From contig JAAOXT010000027.1 in assembly GCA_018221045.1 (NCBI GenBank), positions 536 to 64,535 of the forward strand: a stretch of DNA of 64,000 nucleotides. Direction: 5' to 3'. Source of the DNA: Nanobdellota archaeon. GTDB lineage: Archaea; Nanobdellota; Nanobdellia; JAAOXT01. Positions 19,122 through 62,757 of this stretch are shown here, one piece after another. Every line of letters begins with the position of its first letter. Positions within the stretch are counted from its first letter, which is position 1. The translations under genes and the position numbers were made by a program. The notes below the pieces were generated by a model. It saw only the letters and a program-made list of their open reading frames with translations. It was not told the origin of the DNA and made no database searches.

Positions 19122-20102
19122 TTATACAGCGATTTGTGTGAACATTGTTTGTGCCAGTTTTTTAACAATGAAGAAAACTGTTATTGCCAGCGCGCTAAGA
19201 GGGATCATGTATTTCACTCCTCGAATCGCTTTTTCGCTTTCGAGTTCACCGATTATCAGTGAGGTGAAAACAGCGTTCAATAACAGGGAAGCCAATGAGA
19301 TTATTTGAATGTGCTCTGCAGAGATGGATTGGCCAGGAGACCTTATGGTTAATGAACCCATTCCCATTCCTGGAACACTGGTGACGTCTTGAAAAGTAGT
19401 CATTGATTCAACCAAGAAACCGGATAAGGCGAAAAGGAGCGGGGCTCCGAACGAGGAAGCTATCATGAACAAGATGGAGTAAGCACCTATACTGGCTTTC
19501 ATTTTATCCTTTAACTGTTTGGTTTGTCTTACGTCTTCAGCAATGCCTTCTATGAGCGCGGACATCTTGCTACCCCCTTTAACGCCTTCAACAATTAGTT
19601 TTACCGCTCTGCGCACAAGCGGGGAAGAAGAATTTCTTGATAATTCGGTCAGCGCGTCTTCCGTGCTGTAACCGAACAAAGCTTTTTTACTGGAGTTTTT
19701 TATGTTTTTTGAGAAGGAACCGAATTCTTCTCTGGCGGATAAGAATATGGCTTTTTCAGCGCTGATGCCTGAACGAATGTTTGAAGACATGATTGTTAAA
19801 ACGTCAGGCAATATTTTTTCGACAAAATCGTTTTTTCTGTCAATAGCTATCAAAAATATGATTTCGGATAGCAAGTGTATTGAAACAAAAATAATGATTG
19901 GGGTTAACACGAGCAGGAAGGCAGGAGTGTTCGTGTTCAAAACGTAAACAATGAATGTTATTGTCAGGGATAGCGCAAGAGTGTAAAGGAAGAAGAAGCC
20001 AGTCCACTGGTTAACGTCCAAGTTAACTCCTGCTTTCAGTAAATTGTCTTTCATGCGCTTAACATACTTTTTTGGCAGTGCATGCACGAATCTCTTATAC
20101 AT
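19122..20102 (-). CDS. type IV pilus platform protein, TadC/FlaJ-half-like (T2SSF domain), locus 1
   Basis: The N-terminal TM pair is followed by a cytoplasmic helical domain (LPDVLTIMSSNIRSGISAEKAI, VRRAVKLIVEGVKGGSKMSALIE) and C-terminal TM helices. It is a paralogue of 33681-34670. Confidence 0.75.
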   Translation of the reverse strand: MYKRFVHALPKKYVKRMKDNLLKAGVNLDVNQWTGFFFLYTLALSLTITFIVYVLNTNTPAFLLVLTPIIIFVSIHLLSEIIFLIAIDRKNDFVEKILPDVLTIMSSNIRSGISAEKAIFLSAREEFGSFSKNIKNSSKKALFGYSTEDALTELSRNSSSPLVRRAVKLIVEGVKGGSKMSALIEGIAEDVRQTKQLKDKMKASIGAYSILFMIASSFGAPLLFALSGFLVESMTTFQDVTSVPGMGMGSLTIRSPGQSISAEHIQIISLASLLLNAVFTSLIIGELESEKAIRGVKYMIPLSALAITVFFIVKKLAQTMFTQIAV

Positions 20103-20946
20103 GAGGTCTCACCTTTTGGATGGCTGTTAGAAAAAAAGTGTTTATTACGACCAGATAAACTGGTATCAGGTAAAAAATTTTTGTTAAAGAATCATTACTC
20201 ATTAGTGAGGAGAGAATTATCATTAAAGTCATGCCAAGTGCGGGGAGAATTATTGCTGAAAGCAAGTACATGACGCTCAGCGGAGTCAATTTTGACGAAA
20301 ACTGTTCTATCCTGATTTTTTTGGATCTTTCAATGTTCTGAACCATTGAATGAAGGGTTTTAGAGACGTCCGAGCCTTCTTTTAGAGAGTTTATTAACTG
20401 CCATAGCAGTCGTCGGAAGTCCTCTGAAGCAATTCTTCCCGCAAGTTCTTCAAGCGCTTCTAACTCGCTTTTGCCCGTCTCCAACTCGTGAACATATTTT
20501 TTGAATTCTTCAGAAATCTCTCCGTAATCACCAAACCCGACTCGAGAAATCGCGTTGAAAAGGGTTTGCCCGGAATTTACTCTAACGTAAATCTCTCTTA
20601 TTGCGAACGCAATGTTCTTGTCAAAATCTTTCGACCTTTTATTCGCTAAAAAATAAGGTTGCCTCATTTTTAGTATGAAAGCAAGCCAGAAGATCAGAAA
20701 ACCTGTTGCGAGCGAGAATAGGAAGTTATACGGGTTTAAAATATTCAAAAAAAATAATGTTATCAGCGCTGACGTAGTGTAAAAAGCGCTGAAAGAAGCG
20801 GATATGAGGACTGCTAGGCTGGTGTAATCAAGAACTGATTGTTTGATGCCCGCCCACTTGAGTGTTGGTGACAGTCTTGGAAACATGGAAGAAAGAAGTT
20901 TTGCTAGACCCCTAAAGTTTCTAGCATAATCAATCAATTCACCCAT
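20095..20946 (-). CDS. type IV pilus platform protein, TadB/FlaJ-half-like (T2SSF domain), locus 1
   Basis: AIREIYVRVNSGQTLFNAI...FRRLLWQLINSLKEGSDVSKTL is followed by TM helices. It overlaps each neighbour by 8 nt. Confidence 0.75.
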   Translation of the reverse strand: MGELIDYARNFRGLAKLLSSMFPRLSPTLKWAGIKQSVLDYTSLAVLISASFSAFYTTSALITLFFLNILNPYNFLFSLATGFLIFWLAFILKMRQPYFLANKRSKDFDKNIAFAIREIYVRVNSGQTLFNAISRVGFGDYGEISEEFKKYVHELETGKSELEALEELAGRIASEDFRRLLWQLINSLKEGSDVSKTLHSMVQNIERSKKIRIEQFSSKLTPLSVMYLLSAIILPALGMTLMIILSSLMSNDSLTKIFYLIPVYLVVINTFFLTAIQKVRPHV

Positions 20947-22450
20947 AATTTTTTAGAACCTCTGCTTTTGAACAATTTTTTCGAATCATTTCAAGAAGGG
21001 TTCCGGAATCCAGAAAATAAGCGCTTATAATCCTGCCAACGTTTTCTAACCCGCTTAACTCGTTTTCAATCATCCATTTCAAAACCTTTTTTTTGTCGTT
21101 CAAGTCTTTCGTGACATCTTCTTCACTCATCCCGGTGTACACCTTTATTTTTTGTGTTAAGGTTTTGGATGGGTTTGAGGAAAAGTGTTCGTTAGAACTG
21201 GAATCCCATTCCCGAACCTTGTTGATGACAATCCTTGCTTTTCCCATGATTTCGGTGGATATGACCTCTGACAATTCTGATAATCTTCTTATCCCTTTTC
21301 TTCGGTCCCTGAACATGACAACAATCAATGGAATCGCGCTTATCATGCCTTCAGGAATGTTCATCGGGTCGTGGGTAAGTCTTTGAACGGTTTGCTCTCC
21401 TGTTTCAGCATGAACTGTTGCGTAAACGCTGTGACCCGTGTGAATGGCTTCGAACAAGGTTTCTGCTTCAAACTTTCTTCTAACTTCCCCCACGATGATT
21501 CTGTCCGGCCTCATCCTTAAAGAGTTGATTAAGAGTTCTTGCATGCTAATACCTCCTTTGCCTTCAAGGTTTGGCTCCCTGACCACTAGGGAAGTCCAAT
21601 AAAGAAATGATGGAAGTTGAAGTTCTTTAGTGTCTTCAATGCTAATCACCCTATGATTTGGAGGAATAAAAGCCATTAAGGTGTTCAGAAGCGTGGTTTT
21701 TCCGCTAGCCGTCCCGCCAGCAATGAGATAAGATATTTCATACTGGGTTGCCAGCCATAGAAGTGCGGCTTCCTCGACGGTTAGCGTGTCATTTTTTATC
21801 AAGTCCACGATCGTCCAAGGTTTTTTCCTGAATTTACGAATCGTTATCGTATTACCAAAATAAGAAATAGGGTATAATACTGCGTTAATCCTGTCACCGT
21901 TCAACAACCTAGCGTCTAGTAAGGGGTCAAGACGGCTTATGCTTCTCCCAACTTTTCTCCCAATTATTGTGGAGTAATCGTAAACCTGTTTTTCTGTTAA
22001 AAAAATGTTTGTTTTAAGCCAGCCGTGCGTTCTATGGTAAACCCAGGCAGGAGCTTTTTGCCCGTGAACCACTACTTCTTCCAGTTCAGGGTCGTTAAGC
22101 AAGTATTCCACTGGCCCGAGCCCAATCGTTTCTGAAAGAATTATGCACAGAAGATTGTTCAGCTTTTCTTTAGACTCTTTTGGAAAGTTCTTTCTAATTA
22201 TTTTGACAGCTTTTTCCTTTATTTTGGTCTGAACCATTTTTATCGCTCTCTCGTCAATAATTTCTTCCTCTGATAATTTTATTTCACGCATTAAATCTTC
22301 TTTAACCCCCATAATTATTGCGTGGGTAGCTGGCTTAACCTCGGGCAGTGAAACCTCGTAAACAAGAGTGTATTCTCCTTTTTTTTGGAGGATTCTGACA
22401 GGGATTTCTACGTCAAAAGTTGTTGTTTTGTAATTCGTGATTATCTTCAT
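20939..22450 (-). CDS. type II/IV secretion-family ATPase (ArlI/PilB/VirB11-like), locus 1
   Basis: The Walker A motif is IAGGTASGKTTLLN. The Asp and His boxes are SIEDTKEL, RMRPDRIIVGEVR and HTGHSVYATVHA. Confidence 0.9.
   Translation of the reverse strand: MKIITNYKTTTFDVEIPVRILQKKGEYTLVYEVSLPEVKPATHAIIMGVKEDLMREIKLSEEEIIDERAIKMVQTKIKEKAVKIIRKNFPKESKEKLNNLLCIILSETIGLGPVEYLLNDPELEEVVVHGQKAPAWVYHRTHGWLKTNIFLTEKQVYDYSTIIGRKVGRSISRLDPLLDARLLNGDRINAVLYPISYFGNTITIRKFRKKPWTIVDLIKNDTLTVEEAALLWLATQYEISYLIAGGTASGKTTLLNTLMAFIPPNHRVISIEDTKELQLPSFLYWTSLVVREPNLEGKGGISMQELLINSLRMRPDRIIVGEVRRKFEAETLFEAIHTGHSVYATVHAETGEQTVQRLTHDPMNIPEGMISAIPLIVVMFRDRRKGIRRLSELSEVISTEIMGKARIVINKVREWDSSSNEHFSSNPSKTLTQKIKVYTGMSEEDVTKDLNDKKKVLKWMIENELSGLENVGRIISAYFLDSGTLLEMIRKNCSKAEVLKNYG
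21492..21528. repeat. 37-nt stretch identical to 36397-36433 within the two ATPase paralogues
   Basis: acgatgattctgtccggcctcatccttaaagagttga occurs in both genes. The flanking about 45 nt are also nearly identical. Confidence 0.85.
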
Positions 22451-23100
22451 TTTATTTTTAGGTAAGGGTGACCTATCAGCGGGTACTTCATCTTGACTAA
22501 ATTGTTTTCGCTTAGCTCGTTAGCCCACTCCTCTACTATTTCATAGTCCGCCTTCAATATTTTTGAAAGTTCTTTGACACTGATTTTTTTCGTCATTTTC
22601 ACTATTTCAAGCAATAAATCCGCTTTCGTGTCGAAACGGTCAAGAGGTGGTAGGATTATGGTTTTTCCACTCCTGGTTTTGATTTTGGTCACTTTAAAGT
22701 TCTTGACCGCTTTGTCGAGTTTTTCTTGGCTTTTTTTAATCCAGGATTTCTCGTTAAGGAAGGGCAGTTCTTCCTGTATTGGCTCCCAGAACCCTGGTTT
22801 TATGAACCACATAATTCTTTTCCCGCCTTTGCGAAAAGTTTTATCAAGAGTTGAAGTCCATTTATTTCTTATCTTAAAAGCTTTTTTCGGGTCTTTCTCA
22901 ATTTTTTCCAGTTCTTCTAAACCGTATTTGATTATGTCTTTTCTAATTTTTTCGTGCGGGATCCCGACTTTTAGTGCTTGACCGAATATTTCTTGGAGCT
23001 CGCAACCCACTTCTTTTTTGACTTTAGGTTTAACAATTTTTTTAACAGGGTTTTTCACTGGTTTCTTGTTTTTTTTACGCGAACTTTTTTTAGGAGGCAT
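22447..23100 (-). CDS. Lys-rich N-terminus plus C-terminal wHTH-like protein preceding the locus 1 ATPase
   Basis: MPPKKSSRKKNKKPVKNPVKKIVKPKVKKEV opens the protein. The C-terminal ISVKELSKILKADYEIVEEWANELSENNLVKMKY is homologous to the 112-aa protein at 37345-37683. The track ORF extends to 23172; I prefer the ATG at 23100. Confidence 0.5.
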   Translation of the reverse strand: MPPKKSSRKKNKKPVKNPVKKIVKPKVKKEVGCELQEIFGQALKVGIPHEKIRKDIIKYGLEELEKIEKDPKKAFKIRNKWTSTLDKTFRKGGKRIMWFIKPGFWEPIQEELPFLNEKSWIKKSQEKLDKAVKNFKVTKIKTRSGKTIILPPLDRFDTKADLLLEIVKMTKKISVKELSKILKADYEIVEEWANELSENNLVKMKYPLIGHPYLKIK

Positions 23101-23147
23101 TGATATATATTTTAAATATTCGGGGTAATATAAATATTGTTTTGGAA

Positions 23148-23765
23148 ATGAATGTTTTAAAACTGTTATCAAGGATTTTTTTCCGGAAGATTAGGAGGAA
23201 ACCAGTAGTGATAGGCGTTTTTGGCCCTCCAAACTCTGGTAAAACCACGCTCATTAATAGAATACTTAATGATATTGGCTTGGAAGAATTGGGGAAGGTT
23301 TCCCCCGTGCCTCACGAGACTAGGAAAGTGAAATCAAGAAAAGGCGTGAAATTGAAAGTTGGAAGATTAACACTGGATTTTGAGGTTATGGATACCCCTG
23401 GGGTGAGCGAGAAAATAGATCCAGACATGTTTTCTGAGTATGGTATGAAGGGGCATGGCGCGAGTTTGAGGACGGTGGAGGCCGTTAACGGCGTTGTTGA
23501 AAGCATTAAGGCAATAGAAAGTGTGGATGGCGCTTTGGTAGTCGTGGACGCGTTAGCTGATGAAGTGGATGACATGACCAGGATGCTTGTCAATAATTTT
23601 GAGTTCGCTGGCAAAAAAGTTTTAATAGTTGTTAATAAGATGGATAAGAGCCCTGACGTGTCATTCGTGCAAGAAGCGTTTCCTGATTATAATCTTATCC
23701 TGATTAGCGCTAAAACGGGTTGGAACGTTGAAGAACTGTATAAAGAAATGATAAACATGTTTTAG
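23148..23765 (+). CDS. small GTPase (MMR_HSR1/Era-EngB-like)
   Basis: G1 is GVFGPPNSGKTTLINR, G3 is DTPG, G4 is NKMD and G5 is SAK. I prefer the ATG at 23148 over the track start at 23100. Confidence 0.7.
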   Translation: MNVLKLLSRIFFRKIRRKPVVIGVFGPPNSGKTTLINRILNDIGLEELGKVSPVPHETRKVKSRKGVKLKVGRLTLDFEVMDTPGVSEKIDPDMFSEYGMKGHGASLRTVEAVNGVVESIKAIESVDGALVVVDALADEVDDMTRMLVNNFEFAGKKVLIVVNKMDKSPDVSFVQEAFPDYNLILISAKTGWNVEELYKEMINMF

Positions 23766-23806: not shown

Positions 23807-24109
23807 ATGGAAACTACTGACGATAAAGAAACAGTGAAATACCAAGTAATAGGAATAGGTTACCCAAAAACTGGGTTTAAGAGGTGGGGTTTTAAAAGAG
23901 AAAAGACTACTTTTTATCCTATCTTAGGATTTTTTCCAGTTTCGGGTGTAGAAGTCATACAAAAACAGATTCTAAAATCTTTTAATGAACCTTCTATAAC
24001 TGAAGTTTATGTTTTCATGAGGAAACATGGGAGTAACGAACTATTGTTAAGTATAGAAAAAGGAAAGATTGAAGCAGGGTTTTCGGAACTTGAGAAAAAA
24101 TTTATTTGA
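23807..24109 (+). CDS. hypothetical protein
   Basis: 100-aa ORF downstream of the GTPase on the same strand. I recognise no motif. Confidence 0.3.
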   Translation: METTDDKETVKYQVIGIGYPKTGFKRWGFKREKTTFYPILGFFPVSGVEVIQKQILKSFNEPSITEVYVFMRKHGSNELLLSIEKGKIEAGFSELEKKFI

Positions 24110-24115
24110 CAAAAA

Positions 24116-24877
24116 TCATTCTCGAAAAAAATAGCCCTTGACAGAAACGTTTAGGCCGTACTCTTGGACAAAATTGATTCTCAAGCTTTCCTCTTCAGGC
24201 AGGACGAGAGTTAATTCAGCGATTTCACCGCTCGAATTAGAATAATTTAAAGTGAAATTGTTTTGACGGACCCGCCAGGTCACGTTAGAACTTCCATTGG
24301 TTTCTACTGTCACGTTGGCTTCGCCCACAAGTTTTTCCTCATAAAACTCTGGGCTTTCAATTATAATCTTCAGCGAACCCGCATCGTTCTGCCAAGTCAC
24401 TTGATTAATTTCTGGCAGTTTTAGTTTTAGCGCGGTTGCTGAGCTCGTATTGTTCCAAACAATTTTTTGGGCAGAATAATTATTAGTTATCAGGATTCCA
24501 TACGGTTGAACGATTTGTTCCAGGTAACCGTTATCAACGCTCGAGATCAGGTTAGAAAAGTCGTGAGAGATGCCGTAAACACGGGTTAGGAAAGAGTCGT
24601 AAGAGTTCATGTTATGACTAGCGTTAAAAAAAGGGTTCAAATAGGAATGAAATGTTAGGTTAACCGAGTCACTGCTTGAAACGGAGTGATAAAAATTTGT
24701 TGCTTTGAAAAGATTGTTTTTCACAGTGTTTGCTTCCTGGCTCGTCCGGGAAGCAGCGATTGAGTTAACAAAAGTCTCGCTATAATTATTGTTTTGGGTG
24801 AAGACAAGGAAGACCAGAGAACTTATGACAGTGAAGAAAGCAAGAGTCATTAGTGACATGAGAATTCCTTTTTTCAT
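24116..24877 (-). CDS. minor pilin-like protein (class III signal peptide), locus 1
   Basis: With the ATG at 24877 the N-terminus is MKKGILMSLMTLAFFTVISSLVFLVF and forms an ATGA overlap with the upstream gene. The protein has many N-x-S/T sequons. Confidence 0.6.
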   Translation of the reverse strand: MKKGILMSLMTLAFFTVISSLVFLVFTQNNNYSETFVNSIAASRTSQEANTVKNNLFKATNFYHSVSSSDSVNLTFHSYLNPFFNASHNMNSYDSFLTRVYGISHDFSNLISSVDNGYLEQIVQPYGILITNNYSAQKIVWNNTSSATALKLKLPEINQVTWQNDAGSLKIIIESPEFYEEKLVGEANVTVETNGSSNVTWRVRQNNFTLNYSNSSGEIAELTLVLPEEESLRINFVQEYGLNVSVKGYFFRE

Positions 24878-25266
24878 GGCCATAACCTCATTTCTGCTTT
24901 ACCTAACAGGGTGATGTTGCCTTCGCTTGTCACCAAGAATACTCTTCGCGCGTTAACAAAATCTGTTGTGACCGGGTCGCCTAAGTTGATGGATTGATTC
25001 AAAGAATTGTCTGGATTGTAGTAAAGAACTTCCAGCGAGTGGTTGAGGTTTGGAGGAATTAATTCTTTGAGCGAGTCGTTAATGGTACTTGGATTCATGC
25101 TCTGCAAAGAAGGTGTCAGGACGTTCAAAGTGTCTTGAGCTTGCTTTAACAGCATCAATTTATCGTAATGGGTTTCGTATTCTTGGGAGGGAAAAGTTGC
25201 TAGGAAAAAAGTTATTATCATTGCAGCGAAGAAAACGTCCAGTGAAAAGACGAAGCCTTTACTCAT
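24874..25266 (-). CDS. minor pilin-like protein (class III signal peptide), locus 1
   Basis: With the ATG at 25266 the N-terminus is MSKGFVFSLDVFFAAMIITFFLATF and forms an ATGA overlap with the upstream gene. It is homologous to 38513-38938. Confidence 0.6.
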   Translation of the reverse strand: MSKGFVFSLDVFFAAMIITFFLATFPSQEYETHYDKLMLLKQAQDTLNVLTPSLQSMNPSTINDSLKELIPPNLNHSLEVLYYNPDNSLNQSINLGDPVTTDFVNARRVFLVTSEGNITLLGKAEMRLWP

Positions 25267-25742
25267 TTTTCCCTCCAAACAATTAGTTTAACGTTCACGC
25301 CATCCCCTTTCATTAGCGCAAGTCTTTTGATGGCAACGATTTCATCGGCTAAAGCGTAACTTTCTCCAGAATCATAAATATTGGTGCCGTTCGAATAATT
25401 CACTATTATTCTGTAATCATATTCTTGCAGTCCTAAGAGTTTTTTGGAGTTTTCGTAATCGTTTGACGCGTAATCAATCATTCTTTCAAGTTTTCCGGAA
25501 TCAATGTTTTCAAAATCCTTGACTCCTGCTCGATTTGATTCAATGGACCAGTTGAAGGGCTGGCCGGACGAGTCCATTAAGGAAACGCTCGCGCCGTAAG
25601 CTTTCATTCTTAACTCATTGGTGGAATAACTTTTTTCCAGATCTCTGGAGTAATCGTTCCACATGGTTATGCCTGCGTAAAAGAGTATTGCGAACACGGT
25701 TATGGCGACCACGAAGTCAAGGGACACGATTTGCGCTTTCAA
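25263..25742 (-). CDS. minor pilin-like protein (class III signal peptide), locus 1
   Basis: The N-terminus is MKAQIVSLDFVVAITVFAILFYAGI. It shares GQPFNW and LGLQEYDY blocks with 38935-39414 (GQPYNW, LGIEGYDF). Confidence 0.65.
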   Translation of the reverse strand: MKAQIVSLDFVVAITVFAILFYAGITMWNDYSRDLEKSYSTNELRMKAYGASVSLMDSSGQPFNWSIESNRAGVKDFENIDSGKLERMIDYASNDYENSKKLLGLQEYDYRIIVNYSNGTNIYDSGESYALADEIVAIKRLALMKGDGVNVKLIVWREK

Positions 25743-26116
25743 CTTATCACCACGCCCCCGTTCAAGTTTTGGATGGTCACAACTTCTTGTGAGATGTTGA
25801 AGTCGCTGTGAGAACCGTTGGTCACGCTTGTTATCATATTGCAGAAAACTGTTTCGTTTTCGGAGAGGACTTGCACGGACTTGTCTTGAACGCTTAGGTT
25901 ATACCCTTTCAAAGTCATGTTGGTTTCAAGTCCTTCTAACAGCGTCGCGTCAGCCACTTTGCTGCTGAAAGAGTTGCAAACGCTTTTAACTTCGACGAAA
26001 AATTCTTGGGATTCAAGCATGGTCTTCCTGTGATACACTGAGTTAGTGGTGACGATGAATAAGGAGACCATGAAAGTAATTACGAAAAGTGTTTCCACGC
26101 TAACCTGTGCTTTCAT
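25739..26116 (-). CDS. minor pilin-like protein (class III signal peptide), locus 1
   Basis: The N-terminus is MKAQVSVETLFVITFMVSLFIVTT. A TAATG junction joins it to the upstream gene. Confidence 0.65.
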   Translation of the reverse strand: MKAQVSVETLFVITFMVSLFIVTTNSVYHRKTMLESQEFFVEVKSVCNSFSSKVADATLLEGLETNMTLKGYNLSVQDKSVQVLSENETVFCNMITSVTNGSHSDFNISQEVVTIQNLNGGVVIS

Positions 26117-34670: not shown

Positions 34671-35553
34671 CCATTGCAGGTCGGTTAGTTTTGATAATTC
34701 CCATGAAAGCAACTTGGAAAATGATTAAGTAAACCGGGACGAAATAAAAAATTTCTTTTTGCAGTTCCAAACCCAAAAACGAGCCGAGAATAATCACCAT
34801 GGTAGTGCCCAAAGCAGGGATTATCACTGTAGCCATCATGTACATTAAAGCTAAAGGATTCAGTTTCGCTCCATACTCCTTAATGTTAACCCTTTGCTTA
34901 CTGCTAAGAGTGTGAACAATGGACTCCAACGTTTTAGCGATATCGGACCCTGCCCTCATGGCGTTGGACACCTGCCAAACAACTCTTCTCAACTCGGCTG
35001 AAGGGTTTCTTAAAGCAATATCTTCGATAGAACGGGCCTGCGACTCCCCTGCTTTGATTTGTTTTATCGCAATCATAAACTCTTTAGAAATCTCCCCGTA
35101 ATCCCCTTTTGCAATCCCTTCAATCGCGTCTATTAAAGGAATCCCTGATTTAACCCTTATCGTTAAGTGCCTCAGAGCAAACAAAAGATGTTTTTCAGAC
35201 CTTTTAACCTTCTGCATAATCTTGAACTTGGGGTAATTGATAAGGTAAACGTAAGCGGTCACCATCAACGCGCCAGCAACCCCAAAAGTCATCGTAAGAT
35301 TCTGTGCGGAGAATTCTTTGATGATGAGCAGGACGAAAAGCATGGATGACAATCCAATGAAGAACATGAATCCAGCAGCAAAAATGACCAGTCTTAAATA
35401 ATCCATTGGCTCAATTTCAATCTCTGCTTGAAATAACTCAACGCTTAACTCAGGATAAAACTTTTTTAAGGACTCTGTAACAAACCGAAGAGGCTTTGAA
35501 ACTTTTAAAACCTGACTGACAGGCATGGGGAGAAACGGCAGGAACTTAATCAC
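34663..35553 (-). CDS. type IV pilus platform protein, TadB/FlaJ-half-like, locus 2
   Basis: It is a paralogue of 20095-20946 (ALRHLTIRVKSGIPLIDAI, LRRVVWQVSNAMRAGSDIAKTL). Confidence 0.75.
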   Translation of the reverse strand: MIKFLPFLPMPVSQVLKVSKPLRFVTESLKKFYPELSVELFQAEIEIEPMDYLRLVIFAAGFMFFIGLSSMLFVLLIIKEFSAQNLTMTFGVAGALMVTAYVYLINYPKFKIMQKVKRSEKHLLFALRHLTIRVKSGIPLIDAIEGIAKGDYGEISKEFMIAIKQIKAGESQARSIEDIALRNPSAELRRVVWQVSNAMRAGSDIAKTLESIVHTLSSKQRVNIKEYGAKLNPLALMYMMATVIIPALGTTMVIILGSFLGLELQKEIFYFVPVYLIIFQVAFMGIIKTNRPAMDV

Positions 35554-37367: not shown

Positions 37368-37683
37368 CATTTTCCTCTCTCTTTTTTTTTTCTTCAACAC
37401 CACCTTCTTTTTTTTCTTCCACAATCTTTAAAACAACCTTGCCAAAAGGAGTGTAATCAACCGTAATCAACCCGTTTGATTCTAAGGTTTTAGCCCACTC
37501 TTCAACAAGTTTTTCTTCTTCACCGAACTTTTTGACAAAAAATTTGAGATCCTCTTTTTTCTTCTGTTTAAGGTGGGAGAGCATTACGTCAACTTCTGTA
37601 AGGATTTCTCCTCCAAAACCGTGTTTCACCACTTTTTTTAGAGGTTTTTTCAATTTTTTTTTAAACAATTTTTTTAGATTCAT
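37345..37683 (-). CDS. small Lys/Glu-rich wHTH-like protein preceding the locus 2 ATPase
   Basis: LVEEWAKTLESNGLITVDYTPFGKVVLKI is homologous to the C-terminus of 22447-23100. Confidence 0.5.
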   Translation of the reverse strand: MNLKKLFKKKLKKPLKKVVKHGFGGEILTEVDVMLSHLKQKKKEDLKFFVKKFGEEEKLVEEWAKTLESNGLITVDYTPFGKVVLKIVEEKKEGGVEEKKKREENDEGNGKN

Positions 37684-38516
37684 GTGAGCTCCCCGTTGTT
37701 TAAAACGCTTAAACCAAAATTATTGGCTGATAGGTTGACCCAAGTTTTATTGTATGGGTATGACGCCTTAAATACATTACTTTGGTTTACCTTGAAAGTT
37801 GTTAAGAATTCCGCGCCGTAAAAATCAGGGGTTACTTCAATAACTTTATCGGATTCTCCAGAATCCAGTCTTAACTGGACGTTCAAGTAGCCTTCACTAG
37901 TGCCTATTGATAAATAGTAATTCTTCTTGTCAAGCAACCAAGAAGCATTGTGGTCAGGAAGGTTTATGGAGAACAAGAAATCTCCTTGTCCTGGCTGGTT
38001 GCCAACCCAAGTCGAGTTAACGATTGACCAGTTAAAAGAAGCGTTTAACTCCAAGGAATTAATTTTATCAGCGCCGTGCAAAGCGAAACCAGTTATTTTG
38101 TTACTGGAATAAACGTTTTCCCACGTGATTTCTTGAGGTTCGAAAAGGATTAGCAGAGAACCTTGATTAATCGCTTCTCTCATTCCTGAAAGATTTGTTT
38201 TAACATCAATGTTTGTTTGATTGTTGAAGAAGTTGTTAACCCATTTCTCGAAAATTTTTAACGAGCCTGTCGCGTTGTAATCGTGAAAGCTTGTTTTCAC
38301 GCTGACGCTTCCAGCACTATCCGCGCTTAACTCGGTGTTAGCCACTTTTTCTAGATTGCTGATAAGGTTTCTGGAATAACCAGTTATTTTTTCGCTCAGA
38401 ACAGTGCTGGTTATTATTTTATTGCTGGAAGTGTTAACAAGACTAATCAACATGGCAATCTCAAGTATTAATGAGAATATCAAGAAAACTGATACAGTGA
38501 AAATAATTCCTTTCAT
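37680..38516 (-). CDS. minor pilin-like protein (class III signal peptide), locus 2
   Basis: With the ATG at 38516 the N-terminus is MKGIIFTVSVFLIFSLILEIAMLISLV and forms an ATGA overlap upstream. It is the positional counterpart of 24116-24877. Confidence 0.6.
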   Translation of the reverse strand: MKGIIFTVSVFLIFSLILEIAMLISLVNTSSNKIITSTVLSEKITGYSRNLISNLEKVANTELSADSAGSVSVKTSFHDYNATGSLKIFEKWVNNFFNNQTNIDVKTNLSGMREAINQGSLLILFEPQEITWENVYSSNKITGFALHGADKINSLELNASFNWSIVNSTWVGNQPGQGDFLFSINLPDHNASWLLDKKNYYLSIGTSEGYLNVQLRLDSGESDKVIEVTPDFYGAEFLTTFKVNQSNVFKASYPYNKTWVNLSANNFGLSVLNNGELT

Positions 38517-38938
38517 ATCCAAATCCTCACCTCAGCCACCCCAAAATTCTTTATTCCCCTTTCTTGGATTAAGAACGATTTTTTCACGATGCCGAAATCA
38601 GTTGGTCCTGAAGCGTTGATAGGGTGCTTGACAACAAAGTTCTGCAAAAGAATTATTTCCTGTGTGAGCGCGCTAGCGTTGTAAACACTAACAATCAATT
38701 CAACATTATACTGTTTGGGCAAATACTCTTGAATGAAAGACGAATAATTGGAGGAGTTAAGTGTTTGCAAAACTTTATGCTCGTCCATAATGTTAAGCAA
38801 ATCGTTAGCCATCTGAGTTTCCTTGACTCTTTTCCAGTCAGGATGGTTTCTCATAACGTAAACCGAAGACGTGACCATGACCACCATTATGCTAATCGCT
38901 AACAGCATGTCAGTTATTAACACGAAACCTTTTTTCAC
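38513..38938 (-). CDS. minor pilin-like protein (class III signal peptide), locus 2
   Basis: The N-terminus is MKKGFVLITDMLLAISIMVVMVTSS. Confidence 0.6.
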   Translation of the reverse strand: MKKGFVLITDMLLAISIMVVMVTSSVYVMRNHPDWKRVKETQMANDLLNIMDEHKVLQTLNSSNYSSFIQEYLPKQYNVELIVSVYNASALTQEIILLQNFVVKHPINASGPTDFGIVKKSFLIQERGIKNFGVAEVRIWI

Positions 38939-39414
38939 TGCCTCACCACCAATTCAAAAATCATTGGAGTATCGTTGAGCAACACAATTCTTTCCGATTT
39001 CGACAAGTCCCTTGAGTAATCAAAAGTCCAGTTATAAGAGTATAGTGTTGCGGAACCGTTAACCAATCTGAAAGAGAAGTCGTAACCCTCTATCCCCAAC
39101 CTCTCTTTTACGAAAGAATAATTGTTCAAAGAGTAATCATAAAAAAGCTTGACTTTGCCCGCGTCCAGCACTCCTGGCTTGTTAGTTGAGAGCCCGAAAC
39201 ACTCAACGTCAGTCGTCCAGTTGTAAGGCTGGCCAGGAGTTGACACCAGCAAGTCTGAAACCCGCGTTACCATCAGTTCCAACTCTCTCGTCCTGGTAAC
39301 GTCTTTCTGGGTTAAACTCAAGTAATCCCACATCCTCGCCCCAATCCCCAGAATCACTATGAACAACACCACAGTGAATATCATGCTGGTCGTGAATATT
39401 TGCGCTTTACTCAA
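38935..39414 (-). CDS. minor pilin-like protein (class III signal peptide), locus 2
   Basis: The N-terminus is MSKAQIFTTSMIFTVVLFIVILGIG. At 159 aa it is the same length as its locus 1 counterpart. Confidence 0.65.
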   Translation of the reverse strand: MSKAQIFTTSMIFTVVLFIVILGIGARMWDYLSLTQKDVTRTRELELMVTRVSDLLVSTPGQPYNWTTDVECFGLSTNKPGVLDAGKVKLFYDYSLNNYSFVKERLGIEGYDFSFRLVNGSATLYSYNWTFDYSRDLSKSERIVLLNDTPMIFELVVRQ

Positions 39415-39817
39415 ACACTATCACCTCGTCAACACTTTTCGCAGTGCCAGAAGGATTGATAAAAAAATCGTGCTCAGTCATAGAAGAATTGGTGAAACCC
39501 GTTGTTTGAACGTTGCAGATAAAAGATTTGTCGTCCAAACCGATGACGACCACAGATTCACTAGGGTGCGCGTGATACGAGTAAGGAATCCCCCCTGAAT
39601 AATTGGGTAATGACAAGTTTTCTATCAGGTTATTGGATTTCATCAGCGAGTAAAAACTAGTTCTTAGTTCTTGGCAAGATATTTTTAAATTATCGCTTTT
39701 GGACATGTCGTTAAGCGAAGTGCTCCGCTGAAAAAATATTATGAGGACGGTTATGAGAATCATGATTAGGAAAGAGATTGTTGTGAAAAACTCGATGCTT
39801 AACTGCGCTTTTTTCAT
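39407..39817 (-). CDS. minor pilin-like protein (class III signal peptide), locus 2
   Basis: The N-terminus is MKKAQLSIEFFTTISFLIMILITVLIIFF. Confidence 0.65.
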   Translation of the reverse strand: MKKAQLSIEFFTTISFLIMILITVLIIFFQRSTSLNDMSKSDNLKISCQELRTSFYSLMKSNNLIENLSLPNYSGGIPYSYHAHPSESVVVIGLDDKSFICNVQTTGFTNSSMTEHDFFINPSGTAKSVDEVIVFE

Positions 39818-42642
39818 TCTATTCCAAAATCAACCTCAACCCATCTTGATTTTTTGTTATCAATCCACCAAGCGAATTTTGGGATTATCCTAAACCTCAT
39901 CCAACCAAAACCATTCATTCTATGAGCCGTGTCCGTAACATCAACTTCGTGCCAACCAGTTGAACTGTAAGTGTACTCCGTGAAACCAGTATTTGTTAGT
40001 ATGGTCTCTCCGTCAGAATTATAAGCATGAATCCTTATAGGGTAAGGCTCGTAATCGAACGAGTCCACCTTGAATTTTAAGATAACCTTGGAATACAAGC
40101 TCGGGTCAGCATCTAGCTTCACAACATAACCCTCATACTTATCGTAATCAAACAGTTTTATGTCCATCAATAATTGGTAAGCGCTTGCAGGAGTGTTAGG
40201 GTTGTCATCAGTAAAGTCAAGTGTTATGTTTTCCCAAGACTTCATGTCAGGGTCAGCAGTGCTTTTTCCATGCCCGTTAGTCTTAAAATAATACGCTCGG
40301 CTAACGTCAACATAAGTGTAACCCCCTCCACCCCCTGTACCAGAAATTACTGTAATGGTTTCGTTCTCGTGGAACTCGTCGGTTCCAGTATTGCCTGCCT
40401 GATCATTGGCGTGGCTGGTCACAAGAGTCCAGTTCCCGATGGCCAATAAATAAAGCTCTCCGCCATAAACCCCATCTCCTTCAGCCCCTGAGCAAGAATT
40501 CCCTGTGTCGGAAAGTATTTGGTTGTAAGTAGTGTCCAAGGGAGTGATTAATTCAGCCCAAACCATGCTGACGTTATAATTGTCTGAAACGCTGGCGTTT
40601 AAACAAATAGTTTGCCCTACCTCTGCATTACTCTGGTTCGTCGCGGTTGAGTTCACGATTGGAAGAACAGTGTCACAAGTAATGTTAACCCCTACGCTGA
40701 CGCTTCCTTCGTTCCCCGCCGAGTCGTTTGCATGAGCAGTGCTCCACTCATTGATGCCGGTCTCAGAGCAATAAAAACTCGTTGAGTAAGTGTTACCATA
40801 TTGTCCTGTTGAAGGAAGGGTTTGCCCGCCTATTTGGAACCAGGCTTGGTCCTTGTTGGCATCAATAACGTCGCAACTGATTTGGGAGAACTCGCCTTCG
40901 CGTAAGTATTCGTTGGTTAGAGTGCAGTTTTCCAGAACAGGGTTTTGCGTGTCAACCGTGAAGTGAACAGTGCTTCCAGTGTGATTAGTGTTGTTGTAAA
41001 CGTCCTTGCAGTAAACAGTTATGGAATGAGTTGCGTCCGACAGACCTGTCACGCTTGAATAAAAGTTGGTGTCGTTCTCCTGGTCCATGGTCACGTTTGT
41101 CGGTGACGCGAAGTCAACGTTGTAACCGCACCACGAACCTTTTTCGTTGAGGGTGGCGTTAATCCAGAACGAGTTTGAGGGGTAAGAAGCGTTCTTAGGG
41201 TAATCAATAGTTATTATGGGAGGAATGCTGTCTGTTCCTTCCACGCTGACCAATAAGTTAGCGTTCTCGAAACCAACGTTTTCCGAAGTGTCTTTGGCGT
41301 AAGAAGTGTTAACCATCCACGTCCCGTTAACGTTTAACAATACTTCTGCTCCGAACCAGTTATCCCCGTTGATTCCCGCGCACGCGCTCCCAGTATCAGT
41401 TAGCGTGACATTAATTGCTTGCATGTCAGGGTTCGTCACACTCACCCAGACAGAATCTATCTGGGTGTCGTCCGTGGCAGTCGCGTTCACGCACAATAAA
41501 CCACCAATTATTGCACTGGTTTTATCCACGCTCGTCGAGTTAATGACGGGTAGCACGGTGTCGTCCCCGACGGTTATGCTCAACGAATGATTGTAAGAAT
41601 TGGTGCCTGCAACGTCTGGCTGGGAGTCCCCGAGGATTAACCCGTTAAAAGTTCCGTAAGAGAGACCGAACAGTCTTAAAGTCAAATCCTGACTTCTTCC
41701 AGAAACCATTATTCCTAAGTCAATAAAATCCTCTTTTTCAATCGTTGAAGCGTTAAGGTCAACGTAGCCGATGAGTTCATTGCTCAACGAGAGATTGGTG
41801 TTGAACAACGAGCCAGCTCCAACGTTTGAAACTGTTAATGACATGGTTTTGTTCGTGTTTATGGCAACGTTCACGTTTTCTAAACTCGAGATAGTGAGTT
41901 CTCCCACGCTCACGGTTAACTTGACTGGGATCGTGGTGTTAGCCATGCCAAAACCTTTCAGCGAGAGGTTGCCTTCGTAAACTGCTGGGTAATCATCCCC
42001 ATAAAAAGTTATTACTAAATTCTTGCTCTCACCGACTCCTAAGTCACCAATGTTCGTGTTGTCCTGCCTGCCAGATTCGTCTGAGTCAACGTCAACGCGG
42101 TTGATGAGGGTTCCGGTCGCGTTGACAGTTATCCCTGTTATCGTGGCTTCCTGCAAATTGGTTAATTGAAAATTTTGAGTGAAATTTTTTGAATAATCCA
42201 CTAAAGCGTTGAGGGATTGAGGAATTACCGCGATGTTAGCCACGTCTATGTCCACGCACCCGTTTTCCAAAGCCTTGATTATAATCCTATAATATCCTGG
42301 GTCTACTGGCACGGTTCCTTCAAGGCAGGTGGCCGTGTCCGCGAAAACGTCTGTCGTCCTGTCACCAAAATTGATGGCATAATTAACAGTGCTGCCGTTA
42401 AGATAAGTTCCTGAGGAGTTGATTAGTTTAGGGATTAAAACCAGTATTTCTCTTTGCGCTGGGTGCCCGTCAGCGTAAACAGTGTTGATAGCGTTCTCTA
42501 ATTTATCAACAGTCATCTGAATTTCTCTTAAGTTAGTTGTTTTTTGACTTCTGTCTGACGCGAAATAGAATAGGGGTGTGACTACGAGCAGGAAAAAAGA
42601 TATTAGTACTAAGTACTCCATTCCCACTTGAGCTCGTCTCAT
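39814..42642 (-). CDS. pilin-led giant surface protein: class III signal peptide, conserved N-module, Ig-like repeats and a C-terminal beta-sandwich
   Basis: The N-terminus is MRRAQVGMEYLVLISFFLLVVTP. Residues 1 to approx. 245 align with the 723-aa protein of locus 1. Two approx. 105-aa internal repeats begin VLPVINSTSVDK and VLPIVNSTATNQ. A Gly5 linker precedes a approx. 170-aa C-terminal domain. Confidence 0.8.
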   Translation of the reverse strand: MRRAQVGMEYLVLISFFLLVVTPLFYFASDRSQKTTNLREIQMTVDKLENAINTVYADGHPAQREILVLIPKLINSSGTYLNGSTVNYAINFGDRTTDVFADTATCLEGTVPVDPGYYRIIIKALENGCVDIDVANIAVIPQSLNALVDYSKNFTQNFQLTNLQEATITGITVNATGTLINRVDVDSDESGRQDNTNIGDLGVGESKNLVITFYGDDYPAVYEGNLSLKGFGMANTTIPVKLTVSVGELTISSLENVNVAINTNKTMSLTVSNVGAGSLFNTNLSLSNELIGYVDLNASTIEKEDFIDLGIMVSGRSQDLTLRLFGLSYGTFNGLILGDSQPDVAGTNSYNHSLSITVGDDTVLPVINSTSVDKTSAIIGGLLCVNATATDDTQIDSVWVSVTNPDMQAINVTLTDTGSACAGINGDNWFGAEVLLNVNGTWMVNTSYAKDTSENVGFENANLLVSVEGTDSIPPIITIDYPKNASYPSNSFWINATLNEKGSWCGYNVDFASPTNVTMDQENDTNFYSSVTGLSDATHSITVYCKDVYNNTNHTGSTVHFTVDTQNPVLENCTLTNEYLREGEFSQISCDVIDANKDQAWFQIGGQTLPSTGQYGNTYSTSFYCSETGINEWSTAHANDSAGNEGSVSVGVNITCDTVLPIVNSTATNQSNAEVGQTICLNASVSDNYNVSMVWAELITPLDTTYNQILSDTGNSCSGAEGDGVYGGELYLLAIGNWTLVTSHANDQAGNTGTDEFHENETITVISGTGGGGGYTYVDVSRAYYFKTNGHGKSTADPDMKSWENITLDFTDDNPNTPASAYQLLMDIKLFDYDKYEGYVVKLDADPSLYSKVILKFKVDSFDYEPYPIRIHAYNSDGETILTNTGFTEYTYSSTGWHEVDVTDTAHRMNGFGWMRFRIIPKFAWWIDNKKSRWVEVDFGIE

Positions 42643-42669
42643 GACACTTATTTTTTGGGTTGTGGAATG

Positions 42670-42677
42670 TTATAAAG
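42670..42677 (-). promoter_or_regulatory. TATA-box-like element upstream of the locus 2 adhesin gene
   Basis: The minus strand reads ctttataa about 30 nt upstream of the ATG at 42642. Confidence 0.35.
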
Positions 42678-55308: not shown

Positions 55309-55351
55309 TCTAATAATGATAATCAGTGTAATCGCTCTTTTATAAAAGTTT

Positions 55352-62729: not shown

Positions 62730-62757
62730 TTAAAAAGAAAAAGATTAAGTGAATTTG

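What the first reader, a model, noticed from the sequence alone, without database searches (positions are those of the whole stretch)
39814..42642. Conserved pilin-plus-stalk N-module with swapped C-terminal 'cargo' between the two giant proteins
Residues 1 to approx. 245 of the 942-aa protein (DNA approx. 41907-42642) align with residues 1 to approx. 238 of the 723-aa protein (DNA approx. 27573-28287). One aligned pair is CLEGTVPVDPGYYRIIIKALENGCVDI against CIEGLLPENAGYHLITIKALDNGCVSI. Another is DLGVGESKNLVITFYGDD against LLNAGESKSVTAEFFGDS.

The remainders are unrelated. One is an FG-GAP propeller. The other consists of Ig-like repeats plus a C-terminal beta-sandwich (..GWHEVDVTD..) that vaguely recalls DNRLRE/CBM-like lectin domains.

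This is a modular 'class III leader plus adaptor plus exchangeable binding head' architecture, analogous to polymorphic adhesins.
Basis: partly seen in the sequence, partly recalled or inferred. Interest (0 to 1): 0.65.

Follow-up and report, generated by a model that had tools for sequence, protein, structure and literature searches.

The report
Archaeal pilins with swappable adhesin heads
Two large surface proteins of a tiny symbiotic (DPANN) archaeon share a pilus-subunit base and stalk but carry unrelated binding heads. One head has been replaced wholesale between two near-identical strains, much like the "modular pilins" already known in bacteria.

Summary
The 942-aa protein (B1, 39814-42642, minus strand) and the 723-aa protein (A1, 26116-28287, minus strand) align over residues 1-334 and 1-325. 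Identity is 36% (E 1e-53), and E is still 2e-49 without the hydrophobic leader. The remainders are unrelated.

The shared part has three pieces:
- an archaeal class III signal peptide (+1 Gln, +5 Glu);
- a pilin domain of about 135 aa;
- two Ig-like domains.

A1 ends in an FG-GAP/PQQ-type propeller with about 8 blades. B1 continues with four more Ig-like domains and a 170-aa beta-sandwich with no Pfam match, whose predicted fold is closest to carbohydrate-binding modules.

Each gene leads a five-gene pilin-like cassette in one of two fully paralogous type IV filament loci, each with an ATPase, two platform genes and a KaiC-like gene. The genome is about 97% identical to a "Candidatus Parvarchaeota" MAG.

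Module exchange is seen at two scales. Across roughly 1,200 relatives the pilin domain occurs alone or joined to many different heads. Between the window and the MAG, only A1's head (26108-27300) has been replaced.

This is an archaeal variant of known bacterial modular pilins. Interest is moderate.

The parts
39814..42642 (-). B1: 942-aa modular pilin-like protein, first gene of cassette B
   Evidence: ORF. N-module paralogous to A1. 31 N-x-S/T sequons, against a window background of 0.88 per 100 aa.
42238..42642 (-). B1 aa 1-135: class III leader (MRRA|Q, +5 Glu), hydrophobic alpha-1 helix and pilin globular domain with Cys106/Cys129
   Evidence: 71 of 150 family hits end at profile positions 120-140. 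About 50 of 150 are free-standing proteins of 128-156 aa. The profile gives a weak PDB hit to an archaellin (9v96, E 0.0026) and to type IV pilins. PF04021 hit E 0.024, below cutoff.
41641..42237 (-). B1 aa 136-334: two Ig-like stalk domains shared with A1
   Evidence: The profile hits proteins with 13-15 tandem HYDIN/VesB/ASH/CARDB-type Ig domains. The homologue P0002 gives CARDB E 8.6e-4 at 247-351.
40336..41640 (-). B1 aa 335-769: four further Ig-like domains (about 358-461, 465-556, 560-650, 652-764) and a Gly-rich linker. Not shared with A1.
   Evidence: Internal repeat E 5e-24. These domains recur separately in other family members. Weak PKD/Ig hits.
39817..40335 (-). B1 aa 770-942: C-terminal head, a CBM-like beta-sandwich with no Pfam family
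   Evidence: AF2 pLDDT 77.5, pTM 0.78. Foldseek top PDB hits are CBMs: 8wab E 6e-5 and 7vbo, TM 0.52-0.54. A phage CBM96 protein matches at TM 0.52. No Pfam or PDB sequence hit. Strong purifying selection between strains, dN/dS 0.044.
26116..28287 (-). A1: 723-aa modular pilin-like protein, first gene of cassette A
   Evidence: ORF. PF04021 E 5.1e-5. 19 sequons.
27313..28287 (-). A1 aa 1-325: N-module (pilin domain 1-130 with Cys101/Cys124, plus two Ig-like domains)
   Evidence: BLASTP against B1. 90-100% identical to the orthologue in the reference MAG. HYDIN_VesB-like Ig E 0.0035.
26119..27312 (-). A1 aa 326-723: FG-GAP/PQQ-type beta-propeller head with 8 G-x-[DNST]-G-x3-4-[WYF] repeats and D-x-[DN]-x-D-G loops
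   Evidence: Pfam FG-GAP_3, PQQ_2 and FG-GAP above cutoff. Repeat count.
26108..27300 (-). Tract of A1 replaced between strains. Nucleotide identity to the reference MAG falls to 42-80% here, against about 85-100% on both sides.
   Evidence: Sliding-window identity. pS 0.745 (saturated) against 0.146 in the N-module. Head aa identity 40-72%.
37680..39817 (-). Cassette B genes 2-5: pilin-like proteins of 136, 159, 141 and 280 aa with class III-type N-termini. Only the first has +5 Glu.
   Evidence: Pairwise paralogy with A2-A5.
24116..26116 (-). Cassette A genes 2-5: pilin-like proteins of 125, 159, 134 and 255 aa
32867..37683 (-). Locus B machinery: 112-aa protein, T2SSE ATPase (35550-37424), two T2SSF platform genes (34663-35553, 33681-34712) and a KaiC-like ATPase (32867-33547)
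   Evidence: Pfam.
19122..23172 (-). Locus A machinery: 241-aa protein, T2SSE ATPase (20939-22450) and two platform genes (20095-20946, 19122-20102)
   Evidence: Paralogy with locus B: ATPase 50%, platform genes 33% and 33%.
28375..29217 (+). KaiC-like ATPase divergent from A1, paralogue of the one in locus B
   Evidence: Pfam PF06745 E 6e-63. 26% identity to the locus B copy.

Best explanation
B1 and A1 are modular type IV pilin-like adhesin subunits of two paralogous Epd-like ('System 1') type IV filament machines in a DPANN archaeon.

Shown:
- Each protein starts with an archaeal class III signal peptide (leader ending in Gly or Ala, +1 Gln, +5 Glu, hydrophobic helix).
- This is followed by a pilin domain of about 135 aa that also exists widely as a free-standing pilin, and then by two Ig-like domains.
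- After residue 334/325 the proteins are unrelated. A1 has an FG-GAP/PQQ-type propeller. B1 has four more Ig-like domains and a CBM-like beta-sandwich.
- Each gene leads a tightly packed cassette of five pilin-like genes, followed by an assembly ATPase and two platform genes.

Inferred mechanism:
- A prepilin peptidase, not encoded in the window, cuts before Gln+1.
- The ATPase and platform proteins extract the helix from the membrane into a filament together with the four smaller pilin-like proteins.
- The Ig stalk holds the head away from the filament, and the head binds a ligand. For B1 this is probably a glycan. For A1 it may be a protein or a Ca2+-dependent ligand.
- The cell would therefore make two pili with different specificities, plausibly for attaching to a host cell or a surface.

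Heads are evolutionary cassettes. They are shuffled across the family, and A1's head has been replaced between strains at the module boundary, most likely by recombination with a divergent allele. I lean towards a low-copy or tip position for these subunits, but this is not shown.
For: Paralogy of the N-modules.

Whole-locus paralogy in conserved gene order:
- pilin-like genes 2-5 at 21-27% identity;
- ATPase 50%, platform genes 33% and 33%, KaiC-like 26%.

Class III motif and PF04021. The +1 Gln and +5 Glu match the DUF361/EppA substrates described in PMC3875500. Two platform genes are the hallmark of System 1, which is reported in DPANN (preprint 10.64898/2026.04.22.720090).

Family survey: 1,200 hits, with a domain boundary at about residue 135. 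The heads are diverse.

Incongruence between pilin domain and head:
- 220 pairs have pilin domains at least 40% identical. Only 58 of them share the C-terminal 170 aa, and 69 share nothing after the pilin domain.
- P0028 and P0127 have tails 69% identical but pilin domains only 37% identical.

The same head as B1 sits behind stalks of different lengths.

Strain-level head replacement has breakpoints at residue 329 or so and at the stop codon.

B1's head is under purifying selection (dN/dS 0.044). Against a 68%-identical orthologue, the pilin domain (81.5%) and the head (76.3%) are the two best-conserved parts.

CBM-like fold. Propeller. Sequon enrichment about 3-fold over the window background.

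The concept has precedent in bacteria (PMC8179133, PMC9934059).
Against: - No prepilin peptidase gene was found in the window.
- PF04021 scores are below the gathering threshold: 23.5 against 23.7 bits for A1, and 15.1 bits for B1.
- The only structure model of the N-module is of low confidence (pLDDT 37), so the pilin fold is not shown structurally. The PDB profile hit to an archaellin is weak (E 0.0026).
- No obvious short major pilin is present in the window. The first gene of a five-pilin operon could itself be the major subunit, as gspG is in gspGHIJK.
- B1 and A1 keep +5 Glu, whereas tip-most bacterial minor pilins often lack it (my own knowledge, not tested here).
- No ligand or function has been tested.
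- The strain comparison uses a metagenome bin, so a chimeric assembly cannot be formally excluded.
Confidence: 0.7

Rival explanations
1. B1 and A1 are the major, shaft-forming subunits. Every subunit of the filament would then carry a stalk and head, giving a bottle-brush pilus or a short pseudopilus, rather than a low-copy tip adhesin.
For: They are the first genes of their cassettes. Their pilin domain is the best conserved of the five paralogous pilin pairs: about 40% identity, against 21-27%. They keep +5 Glu. No short major pilin is present in the window. In related DPANN loci the homologous gene of about 135 aa is a plain pilin in the same cassette. A 463-aa archaellin forms filaments in PDB entry 9v96, so large subunits are possible.
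Against: An 800-aa extension on every subunit would crowd the shaft. B2 and A2 (136 and 125 aa, also with +5 Glu) are simpler candidates for the major pilin. In bacteria, modular pilins are minor subunits (PMC8179133, PMC9934059). The major pilin may lie outside the window, as in M. maripaludis (PMC3875500).
Confidence: 0.2
2. The proteins are not part of a filament. The class III signal and helix would serve only as a membrane anchor or secretion device for cell-surface binding proteins, as in the Sulfolobus bindosome.
For: Class III signals on large non-pilin binding proteins are known in archaea (PMC3047682). No filament has been observed for this organism.
Against: Residues 30-135 are a conserved globular domain that is widespread as a free-standing protein of pilin size, not merely a leader. 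The genes are translationally coupled to four other pilin-like genes and to an ATPase and platform set, and this order is conserved in other DPANN lineages.
Confidence: 0.08
3. The difference in heads reflects programmed variation within one cell, through a shufflon, silent-cassette gene conversion or a diversity-generating retroelement. On this view it is not evolutionary domain shuffling and inter-strain recombination.
For: R64 PilV and Neisseria pilE/pilS show that pilin C-termini can be switched by DNA rearrangement (my own knowledge; the PilV adhesin paper appears in the reference list of PMC3875500). DPANN genomes are known to carry DGRs (my own knowledge).
Against: The window holds no second copy of either head (tblastn finds only self). 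No inverted repeats flank the heads. No template/variable repeat pair or any other long repeat exists apart from the paralogous machinery genes. The replaced tract is 1.2 kb and its synonymous sites are saturated, which does not fit adenine-specific DGR mutagenesis.
Confidence: 0.02

Closest known systems
Bacterial modular type IV pilins (Streptococcus sanguinis PilB with a vWA module and PilC with a ConA-like lectin module; Raynaud et al. 2021, PMC8179133; Shahin et al. 2023, PMC9934059)
   Same: A small N-terminal pilin module carries a grafted binding module that is not specific to pili. The system has five pilins. The family shows a great variety of architectures, including lectin and VWA modules, which are also seen here.
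   Different: The leader here is the archaeal DUF361/UPF0333 type (+1 Gln), not the bacterial IPR012902 N-methylation motif. The bacterial survey did not cover archaea. Here a conserved two-domain Ig stalk is part of the shared module. The heads are a propeller and an unannotated CBM-like domain. Head replacement between strains is documented here.
Methanococcus maripaludis Epd pili, the archaeal TFF 'System 1' (PMC3875500; Makarova et al. 2016, PMC4858521; preprint 10.64898/2026.04.22.720090)
   Same: One ATPase plus two separate platform genes. Several pilin-like proteins with a leader ending in Gly or Ala, +1 Gln and +5 Glu. The system is reported in some DPANN archaea, and adhesin-like class III proteins are noted in these loci.
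   Different: No EppA peptidase and no short EpdE-like major pilin were found in the window. Here pilins and machinery form one compact operon, and that operon is duplicated. The first pilin carries a stalk and head of 390-800 aa.
PilV adhesins of the plasmid R64 thin pilus (shufflon)
   Same: A constant N-terminal pilin part is joined to alternative C-terminal segments that set binding specificity.
   Different: R64 uses a site-specific recombinase and inverted repeats within a single DNA molecule. Neither is present here. The exchange here is between lineages.
PilY1/PilC tip adhesins of bacterial type IVa pili
   Same: A beta-propeller-bearing adhesin works together with a set of minor pilins.
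   Different: PilY1 is not a pilin. In A1 the propeller is fused to the pilin itself, and by Pfam it is of FG-GAP/PQQ type. Similarity to the PilY1 propeller was not tested.
Two distinct type IV pili of episymbiotic Saccharibacteria (PMC12206443)
   Same: An ultrasmall episymbiont encodes two separate pilus systems, one of them implicated in host binding.
   Different: That system is bacterial and unrelated in its components. A role in host binding is only inferred for the window.

Membership tests
Archaeal class III signal peptide / DUF361-UPF0333 pilin-like proteins (PF04021) | Short basic leader ending in Gly or Ala, +1 Gln, +5 Glu, then about 20 hydrophobic residues | tested here: met
   B1 reads MRRA|QVGME followed by a hydrophobic stretch. 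A1 reads MIKG|QVSVE followed by a hydrophobic stretch. The same motif is found in most of the 150 top relatives.
Archaeal class III signal peptide / DUF361-UPF0333 pilin-like proteins (PF04021) | Pfam model score above the gathering threshold (23.7 bits) | tested here: not met
   A1 scores 23.5 bits (E 5.1e-5) and B1 scores 15.1 bits (E 0.024), both below the cutoff. A relative is named 'UPF0333 family' by JGI.
Type IV pilin (type IV filament subunit) | Long N-terminal alpha-helix packed against a beta-sheet globular domain | tested here: inconclusive
   The AF2 model has helix 3-58 followed by strands, but pLDDT is only 37. The profile search against PDB gives an archaellin at E 0.0026 over 130 positions, and type IV pilins only at E 0.15 or weaker.
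Type IV pilin (type IV filament subunit) | Encoded with an assembly ATPase and platform protein | tested here: met
   T2SSE and two T2SSF genes lie downstream of each cassette.
Type IV pilin (type IV filament subunit) | Cleaved by a prepilin peptidase and incorporated into a filament | not testable with these tools
   No peptidase gene was found in the window, either by a motif scan or by Pfam on candidate ORFs.
Archaeal TFF System 1 (Epd-like) | Platform protein split into two genes beside one ATPase | tested here: met
   Platform genes at 34663-35553 and 33681-34712, and at 20095-20946 and 19122-20102. The criterion comes from preprint 10.64898/2026.04.22.720090.
Archaeal TFF System 1 (Epd-like) | Dedicated EppA peptidase and a short EpdE-type major pilin lacking a globular domain | tested here: not met
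   Neither is present in the 64-kb window. They could lie elsewhere in the genome.
Modular pilins (as defined by Raynaud et al. 2021) | Pilin module fused to one or more domains that also occur outside pilus proteins | tested here: met
   FG-GAP/PQQ propeller. Ig-like stalk domains related to HYDIN/VesB/CARDB repeats of non-pilin proteins. CBM-like head.
Modular pilins (as defined by Raynaud et al. 2021) | Bacterial IPR012902 N-terminal methylation motif | not tested
   No InterPro scan was available. The leader is of the archaeal type, so formal membership in the bacterial set is unlikely.
CBM96 / DNRLRE domain (B1 head) | Significant match to the Pfam PF24517 or NCBIfam DNRLRE model | tested here: not met
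   B1 gives no match. One homologue of the head reaches only E 0.029.
CBM96 / DNRLRE domain (B1 head) | Same beta-sandwich fold | tested here: inconclusive
   Foldseek TM is 0.52-0.54 to CBMs 8wab and 7vbo and 0.52 to a phage protein annotated as CBM96. Residues 36-63 of the model are of low confidence.
FG-GAP / PQQ-like beta-propeller (A1 head) | Repeated blades matching the Pfam models above threshold | tested here: met
   FG-GAP_3 64.9 bits, PQQ_2 54.4 bits, FG-GAP 45.9 bits. Eight G-x-[DNST]-G-x3-4-[WYF] repeats.
Shufflon or silent-cassette pilin variation | Extra head copies or flanking inverted repeats in cis | tested here: not met
Diversity-generating retroelement target | Template/variable repeat pair near the gene | tested here: not met
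   No such repeat was found in the whole window. The divergence spans 1.2 kb and its synonymous sites are saturated.

The most novel reading that the evidence does not exclude
The two pili are the host-recognition organs of this DPANN episymbiont. On this reading their heads behave like phage receptor-binding proteins. The head cassette would be exchanged by recombination at a fixed joint after the Ig stalk, so that head alleles set or shift host range. The A1 propeller would be the fast-switching determinant and the B1 CBM-like head the conserved one.
Probability: 0.25. Interest if true: 0.7.

Novelty: new variant of a known kind. Interest (0 to 1): 0.45.

Why it matters
How DPANN archaea recognise and hold on to their hosts is largely unknown. 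Type IV pili are prime suspects, by analogy with Saccharibacteria.

This locus gives a concrete and testable candidate: two complete pilus systems whose lead subunit displays a different binding head. It also shows that one head is exchanged between near-identical strains exactly at the module joint.

The analysis further shows that the 'modular pilin' design principle, so far catalogued only through a bacterial motif, is widespread on an archaeal pilin scaffold. The search found about 1,200 relatives, many annotated only as hypothetical proteins. It also defines an unannotated CBM-like head domain that recurs at the C-terminus of such pilins.

The principle itself is not new, which limits the surprise.

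Tried and rejected
- The search for homologous proteins with B1 1-341 found nothing. With profiles of the pilin domain and of the head it found only 6 and 2 proteins. The word index misses this family. The exhaustive HMMER search was what worked.
- AlphaFold2 on the N-module with a two-sequence alignment gave pLDDT 37. It was not used for a fold search.
- The genome scan found only the source species and two distant loci. The metagenome scan found only distant loci. No further close alleles of the heads were obtained.
- The look-up of encoding contigs did not hold B1.
- Rfam gave no matches in the window.
- The head domain gave no significant sequence hit against Pfam, NCBIfam or PDB.
- Shufflon, silent-cassette and DGR explanations were rejected.
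- A regex and Pfam search for a prepilin peptidase in the window was negative. The regex is crude, and not every ORF was scanned.
Full report
**Observation.** B1 is 39814..42642 (942 aa) and A1 is 26116..28287 (723 aa). BLASTP gives a single strong HSP, B1 1-334 against A1 1-325, with 36% identity, 60% positives and E 1e-53. Every other HSP has E >= 0.47, so the remainders are unrelated. With the leader and hydrophobic helix (first 31 residues) removed, E is still 2e-49. The one correction is that the shared module is about 330 aa long, not about 245.

**Anatomy of the shared module.** I searched a profile of the two N-modules against 1.84 billion representative proteins. It found 1,200 proteins at E <= 1e-3 and 291 at E <= 1e-10.
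- About 50 of the best 150 are free-standing proteins of 128-156 aa that match profile positions 1-135.
- The others are 180-1,771 aa long.
- The match ends at positions 120-140 in 71 of the 150, and otherwise spreads out to position 337.

The module therefore has three parts: a pilin-size domain (B1 1-135), a second domain (about 140-245) and a third (about 246-334).

Most family members start with [KR][GAS]-Q-x3-E followed by a hydrophobic stretch. This is the archaeal class III signal with +1 Gln and +5 Glu, described for the DUF361 substrates of the peptidase EppA in Methanococcus (PMC3875500).
- Pfam PF04021 hits A1 at 23.5 bits, just under the 23.7-bit cutoff, and B1 at 15.1 bits.
- JGI names one relative 'UPF0333 family'.
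- A 54-sequence profile of the pilin domain gives only weak PDB hits. The best is an archaellin (9v96, E 0.0026, aligned over 130 positions), followed by type IV pilins.
- My only structure model of the N-module was of low confidence (pLDDT 37). It shows a helix at 3-58 followed by strands. The pilin fold is therefore inferred, not shown.

Domains 2 and 3 are Ig-like.
- The profile also hits non-pilin proteins built of 13-15 tandem HYDIN/VesB/ASH/CARDB-type Ig domains.
- A1's stalk gives a weak direct hit to that family (E 0.0035).
- An orthologue of B1 gives CARDB at E 8.6e-4.

**The heads.** A1 326-723 is a propeller. FG-GAP_3 (64.9 bits), PQQ_2 (54.4 bits) and FG-GAP (45.9 bits) all score above their cutoffs. 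It has eight G-x-[DNST]-G-x3-4-[WYF] repeats and D-x-[DN]-x-D-G loops.

B1 335-769 holds four more Ig-like domains. Two of them are clear internal repeats (38% identity, E 5e-24).

B1 770-942 has no significant hit in Pfam, NCBIfam or PDB sequences.
- An eight-sequence alignment gave a usable AlphaFold2 model (pLDDT 77.5, pTM 0.78), a beta-sandwich of ten strands.
- Foldseek places it nearest to carbohydrate-binding modules. These are a chondroitin-sulfate CBM (8wab, E 6e-5, TM 0.52-0.54) and an alginate-binding CBM (7vbo, TM 0.54), then CBM35/6/11/30 and gingipain adhesin domains.
- Among viral models it matches tail-fibre proteins and a phage protein annotated as CBM96 (TM 0.52).

It is not supported as family membership.

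Both proteins are rich in N-x-S/T sequons, with 31 in B1 and 19 in A1, against 0.88 per 100 aa in the window's long ORFs. This fits glycosylated extracellular proteins, though that is an inference.

**Context.** Each gene leads a cassette of five genes with class III-type N-termini and overlapping stop and start codons.
- Cassette B encodes proteins of 942, 136, 159, 141 and 280 aa.
- Cassette A encodes proteins of 723, 125, 159, 134 and 255 aa.
- Each cassette is followed by a small protein, a T2SSE-type ATPase and two separate T2SSF platform genes. A KaiC-like ATPase lies nearby.

All components pair up in the same order between the two loci:
- pilin-like genes 2-5 at 21-27% identity;
- ATPase at 50%;
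- the two platform genes at 33% each;
- KaiC-like at 26%;
- the small protein at 36%.

Two platform genes with DUF361-type pilins define the Epd-like 'System 1', which is reported in methanogens, Thermococcales and some DPANN (preprint 10.64898/2026.04.22.720090; PMC4858521).

The window is about 97% identical in nucleotide sequence to contig JAFCDO010000001.1 of 'Candidatus Parvarchaeota archaeon Meg19_1012_Bin_507'. That phylum belongs to the kingdom Nanobdellati, i.e. DPANN. Named relatives come from Woesearchaeota, Nanoarchaeota, Diapherotrites and Nanohalarchaeota.

In a Nanohalarchaeota locus and a metagenome locus the same five-gene order is kept. There, however, the A1/B1-type gene is a plain 135-aa pilin, and it is the fourth gene that carries a 646- or 923-aa extension. 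No prepilin peptidase and no short Flp/EpdE-like pilin were found in the window.

**Are the heads really exchangeable?** Evidence comes from two scales.

Family scale:
- 74 long members carry at least 26 different Pfam families behind the pilin domain. These include MG2 (10 members), ConA-like lectin (4), VWA (3), several Big/Ig types, LTD, Invasin_D3 and CBM96. The propeller occurs only in A1's orthologue.
- Among 78 long members, 220 pairs have pilin domains at least 40% identical. Only 58 of those pairs share the last 170 aa, and 69 share nothing detectable after the pilin domain.
- Conversely, P0028 and P0127 have tails 69% identical on pilin domains only 37% identical.
- B1's own head recurs in six other members (one of them B1's 68%-identical orthologue, P0002) behind stalks of about 70 to 630 aa. 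One is a 386-aa Woesearchaeota protein in which only a Cys-rich linker separates pilin and head.
- A caveat is that some database proteins may be truncated at contig ends.

Strain scale, comparing A1 with its orthologue in the reference MAG:
- A1 is 90-100% identical over residues 1-300 and 40-72% identical from 331 to the end.
- Nucleotide identity drops at about 27300 (codon 329 or so) and recovers at 26107, which is A1's stop codon.
- Synonymous differences are saturated in the head (pS 0.745), against 0.146 in the N-module.
- The two heads are homologous blade by blade.

Because silent sites are saturated, the pattern is best explained by replacement with a divergent allele through recombination, rather than by local positive selection. 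That is an inference.

Three boundaries coincide within a few residues: the end of the A1/B1 paralogy, the 5' end of the inter-strain replacement tract, and the outer limit of the family matches, although only four of the 150 hits extend past position 300.

B1 behaves differently. It is uniformly about 97% identical between the strains, and its head is under strong purifying selection (dN/dS 0.044). Against a 68%-identical orthologue, the pilin domain (81.5%) and the head (76.3%) are the two best-conserved parts, while the stalk domains range from 53% to 73%.

Programmed switching is unlikely. The window holds no second head copy, no flanking inverted repeats and no template/variable repeat pair.

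**Mechanism.** The shown facts are the domain architecture, the operon context, the paralogy and the head exchange. The rest is inferred.
- The proteins are processed by a prepilin peptidase before Gln+1.
- They are extracted from the membrane by the ATPase and platform into a filament, together with the four small pilin-like proteins.
- They present a ligand-binding head on an Ig stalk.

I lean towards a low-copy or tip position, by analogy with bacterial modular minor pilins (PMC8179133, PMC9934059). The shaft alternative is real, though.
- B1 and A1 are the first genes of their cassettes.
- They keep +5 Glu, whereas genes 3-5 lack it.
- They have the best-conserved pilin domain of the five pairs.
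- The window has no other obvious major pilin apart from B2 and A2.

A role in host attachment is plausible for a DPANN organism, and is paralleled by the two pili of Saccharibacteria (PMC12206443). It has not been tested.

**Comparison and novelty.** The design is that of bacterial modular pilins. Those were catalogued through the bacterial IPR012902 motif (more than 1,200 proteins and 264 architectures), and that paper does not mention archaea. Large class III-signal 'adhesin-like' proteins have been noted in archaeal System 1 loci (PMC4858521; the 2026 preprint) but were not analysed in this way. New here are:
- the scale of the archaeal modular family built on one pilin scaffold;
- the conserved pilin-plus-two-Ig adaptor;
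- an unannotated CBM-like head domain;
- a head replacement between near-identical strains with breakpoints at the module joint.

I rate this a new variant of a known kind, of moderate interest.

Noticed in passing
window 54436-63942 (minus strand): A third cluster of five large genes with no Pfam match. The first is a 394-aa protein with a class III-like N-terminus (MKKGQIAVPVALILF...). The others are 791, 1322, 346 and 290 aa. Three of them have lipoprotein-like signals (..LAGC, ..MAGC, ..LLGC), and the 1322-aa protein has 83 cysteines. None is similar to the A or B cassette proteins.
   Followed up: partly
L001 11237-11403 (reference MAG), corresponding to window ~39405-39420: The reference MAG has a 167-nt insertion between the second and third pilin-like genes of cassette B, which overlap in the window. 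The insertion is bounded by a 17-nt direct duplication (GGTGATAGTGTTTGA[A/G]TAA, differing at one base), which looks like a small mobile element or a duplication-mediated indel.
   Followed up: partly
window 24008-24127: A second sharp drop in identity to the reference MAG (40-52%) lies just downstream of the last gene of cassette A. It overlaps the plus-strand ORF 23807-24109.
   Followed up: no
window 26454-26492 and 27012-27050: A perfect 39-nt direct repeat lies inside the A1 propeller. It encodes FYAFYGQNGTQMW in blades 2 and 6. Such a repeat could promote blade-level recombination.
   Followed up: no
window 42669-42676 and 28310-28322: A/T-rich TATA-like boxes (CTTTATAA; ATAATTAATAAAA) lie about 23-35 nt upstream of the B1 and A1 start codons. 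This suggests leaderless or short-leader transcripts. The promoter tool does not cover archaeal promoters.
   Followed up: no
window 28375-29217 (+) and 32867-33547 (-): A KaiC-like ATPase gene accompanies each of the two filament loci, which recalls ArlH of the archaellum. Between the loci lie a MinD/ParA-like ATPase (29591-30343) and a DEAD-box helicase (30980-32275).
   Followed up: partly
L004 9301-11241 and L005 7437-10208: In a Nanohalarchaeota genome and in a metagenome contig, the homologous five-gene cassette has its large extension (646 and 923 aa) on the fourth pilin-like gene (KGF-type N-terminus), not the first. Module grafting has therefore happened on different subunits in different DPANN lineages.
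   Followed up: partly
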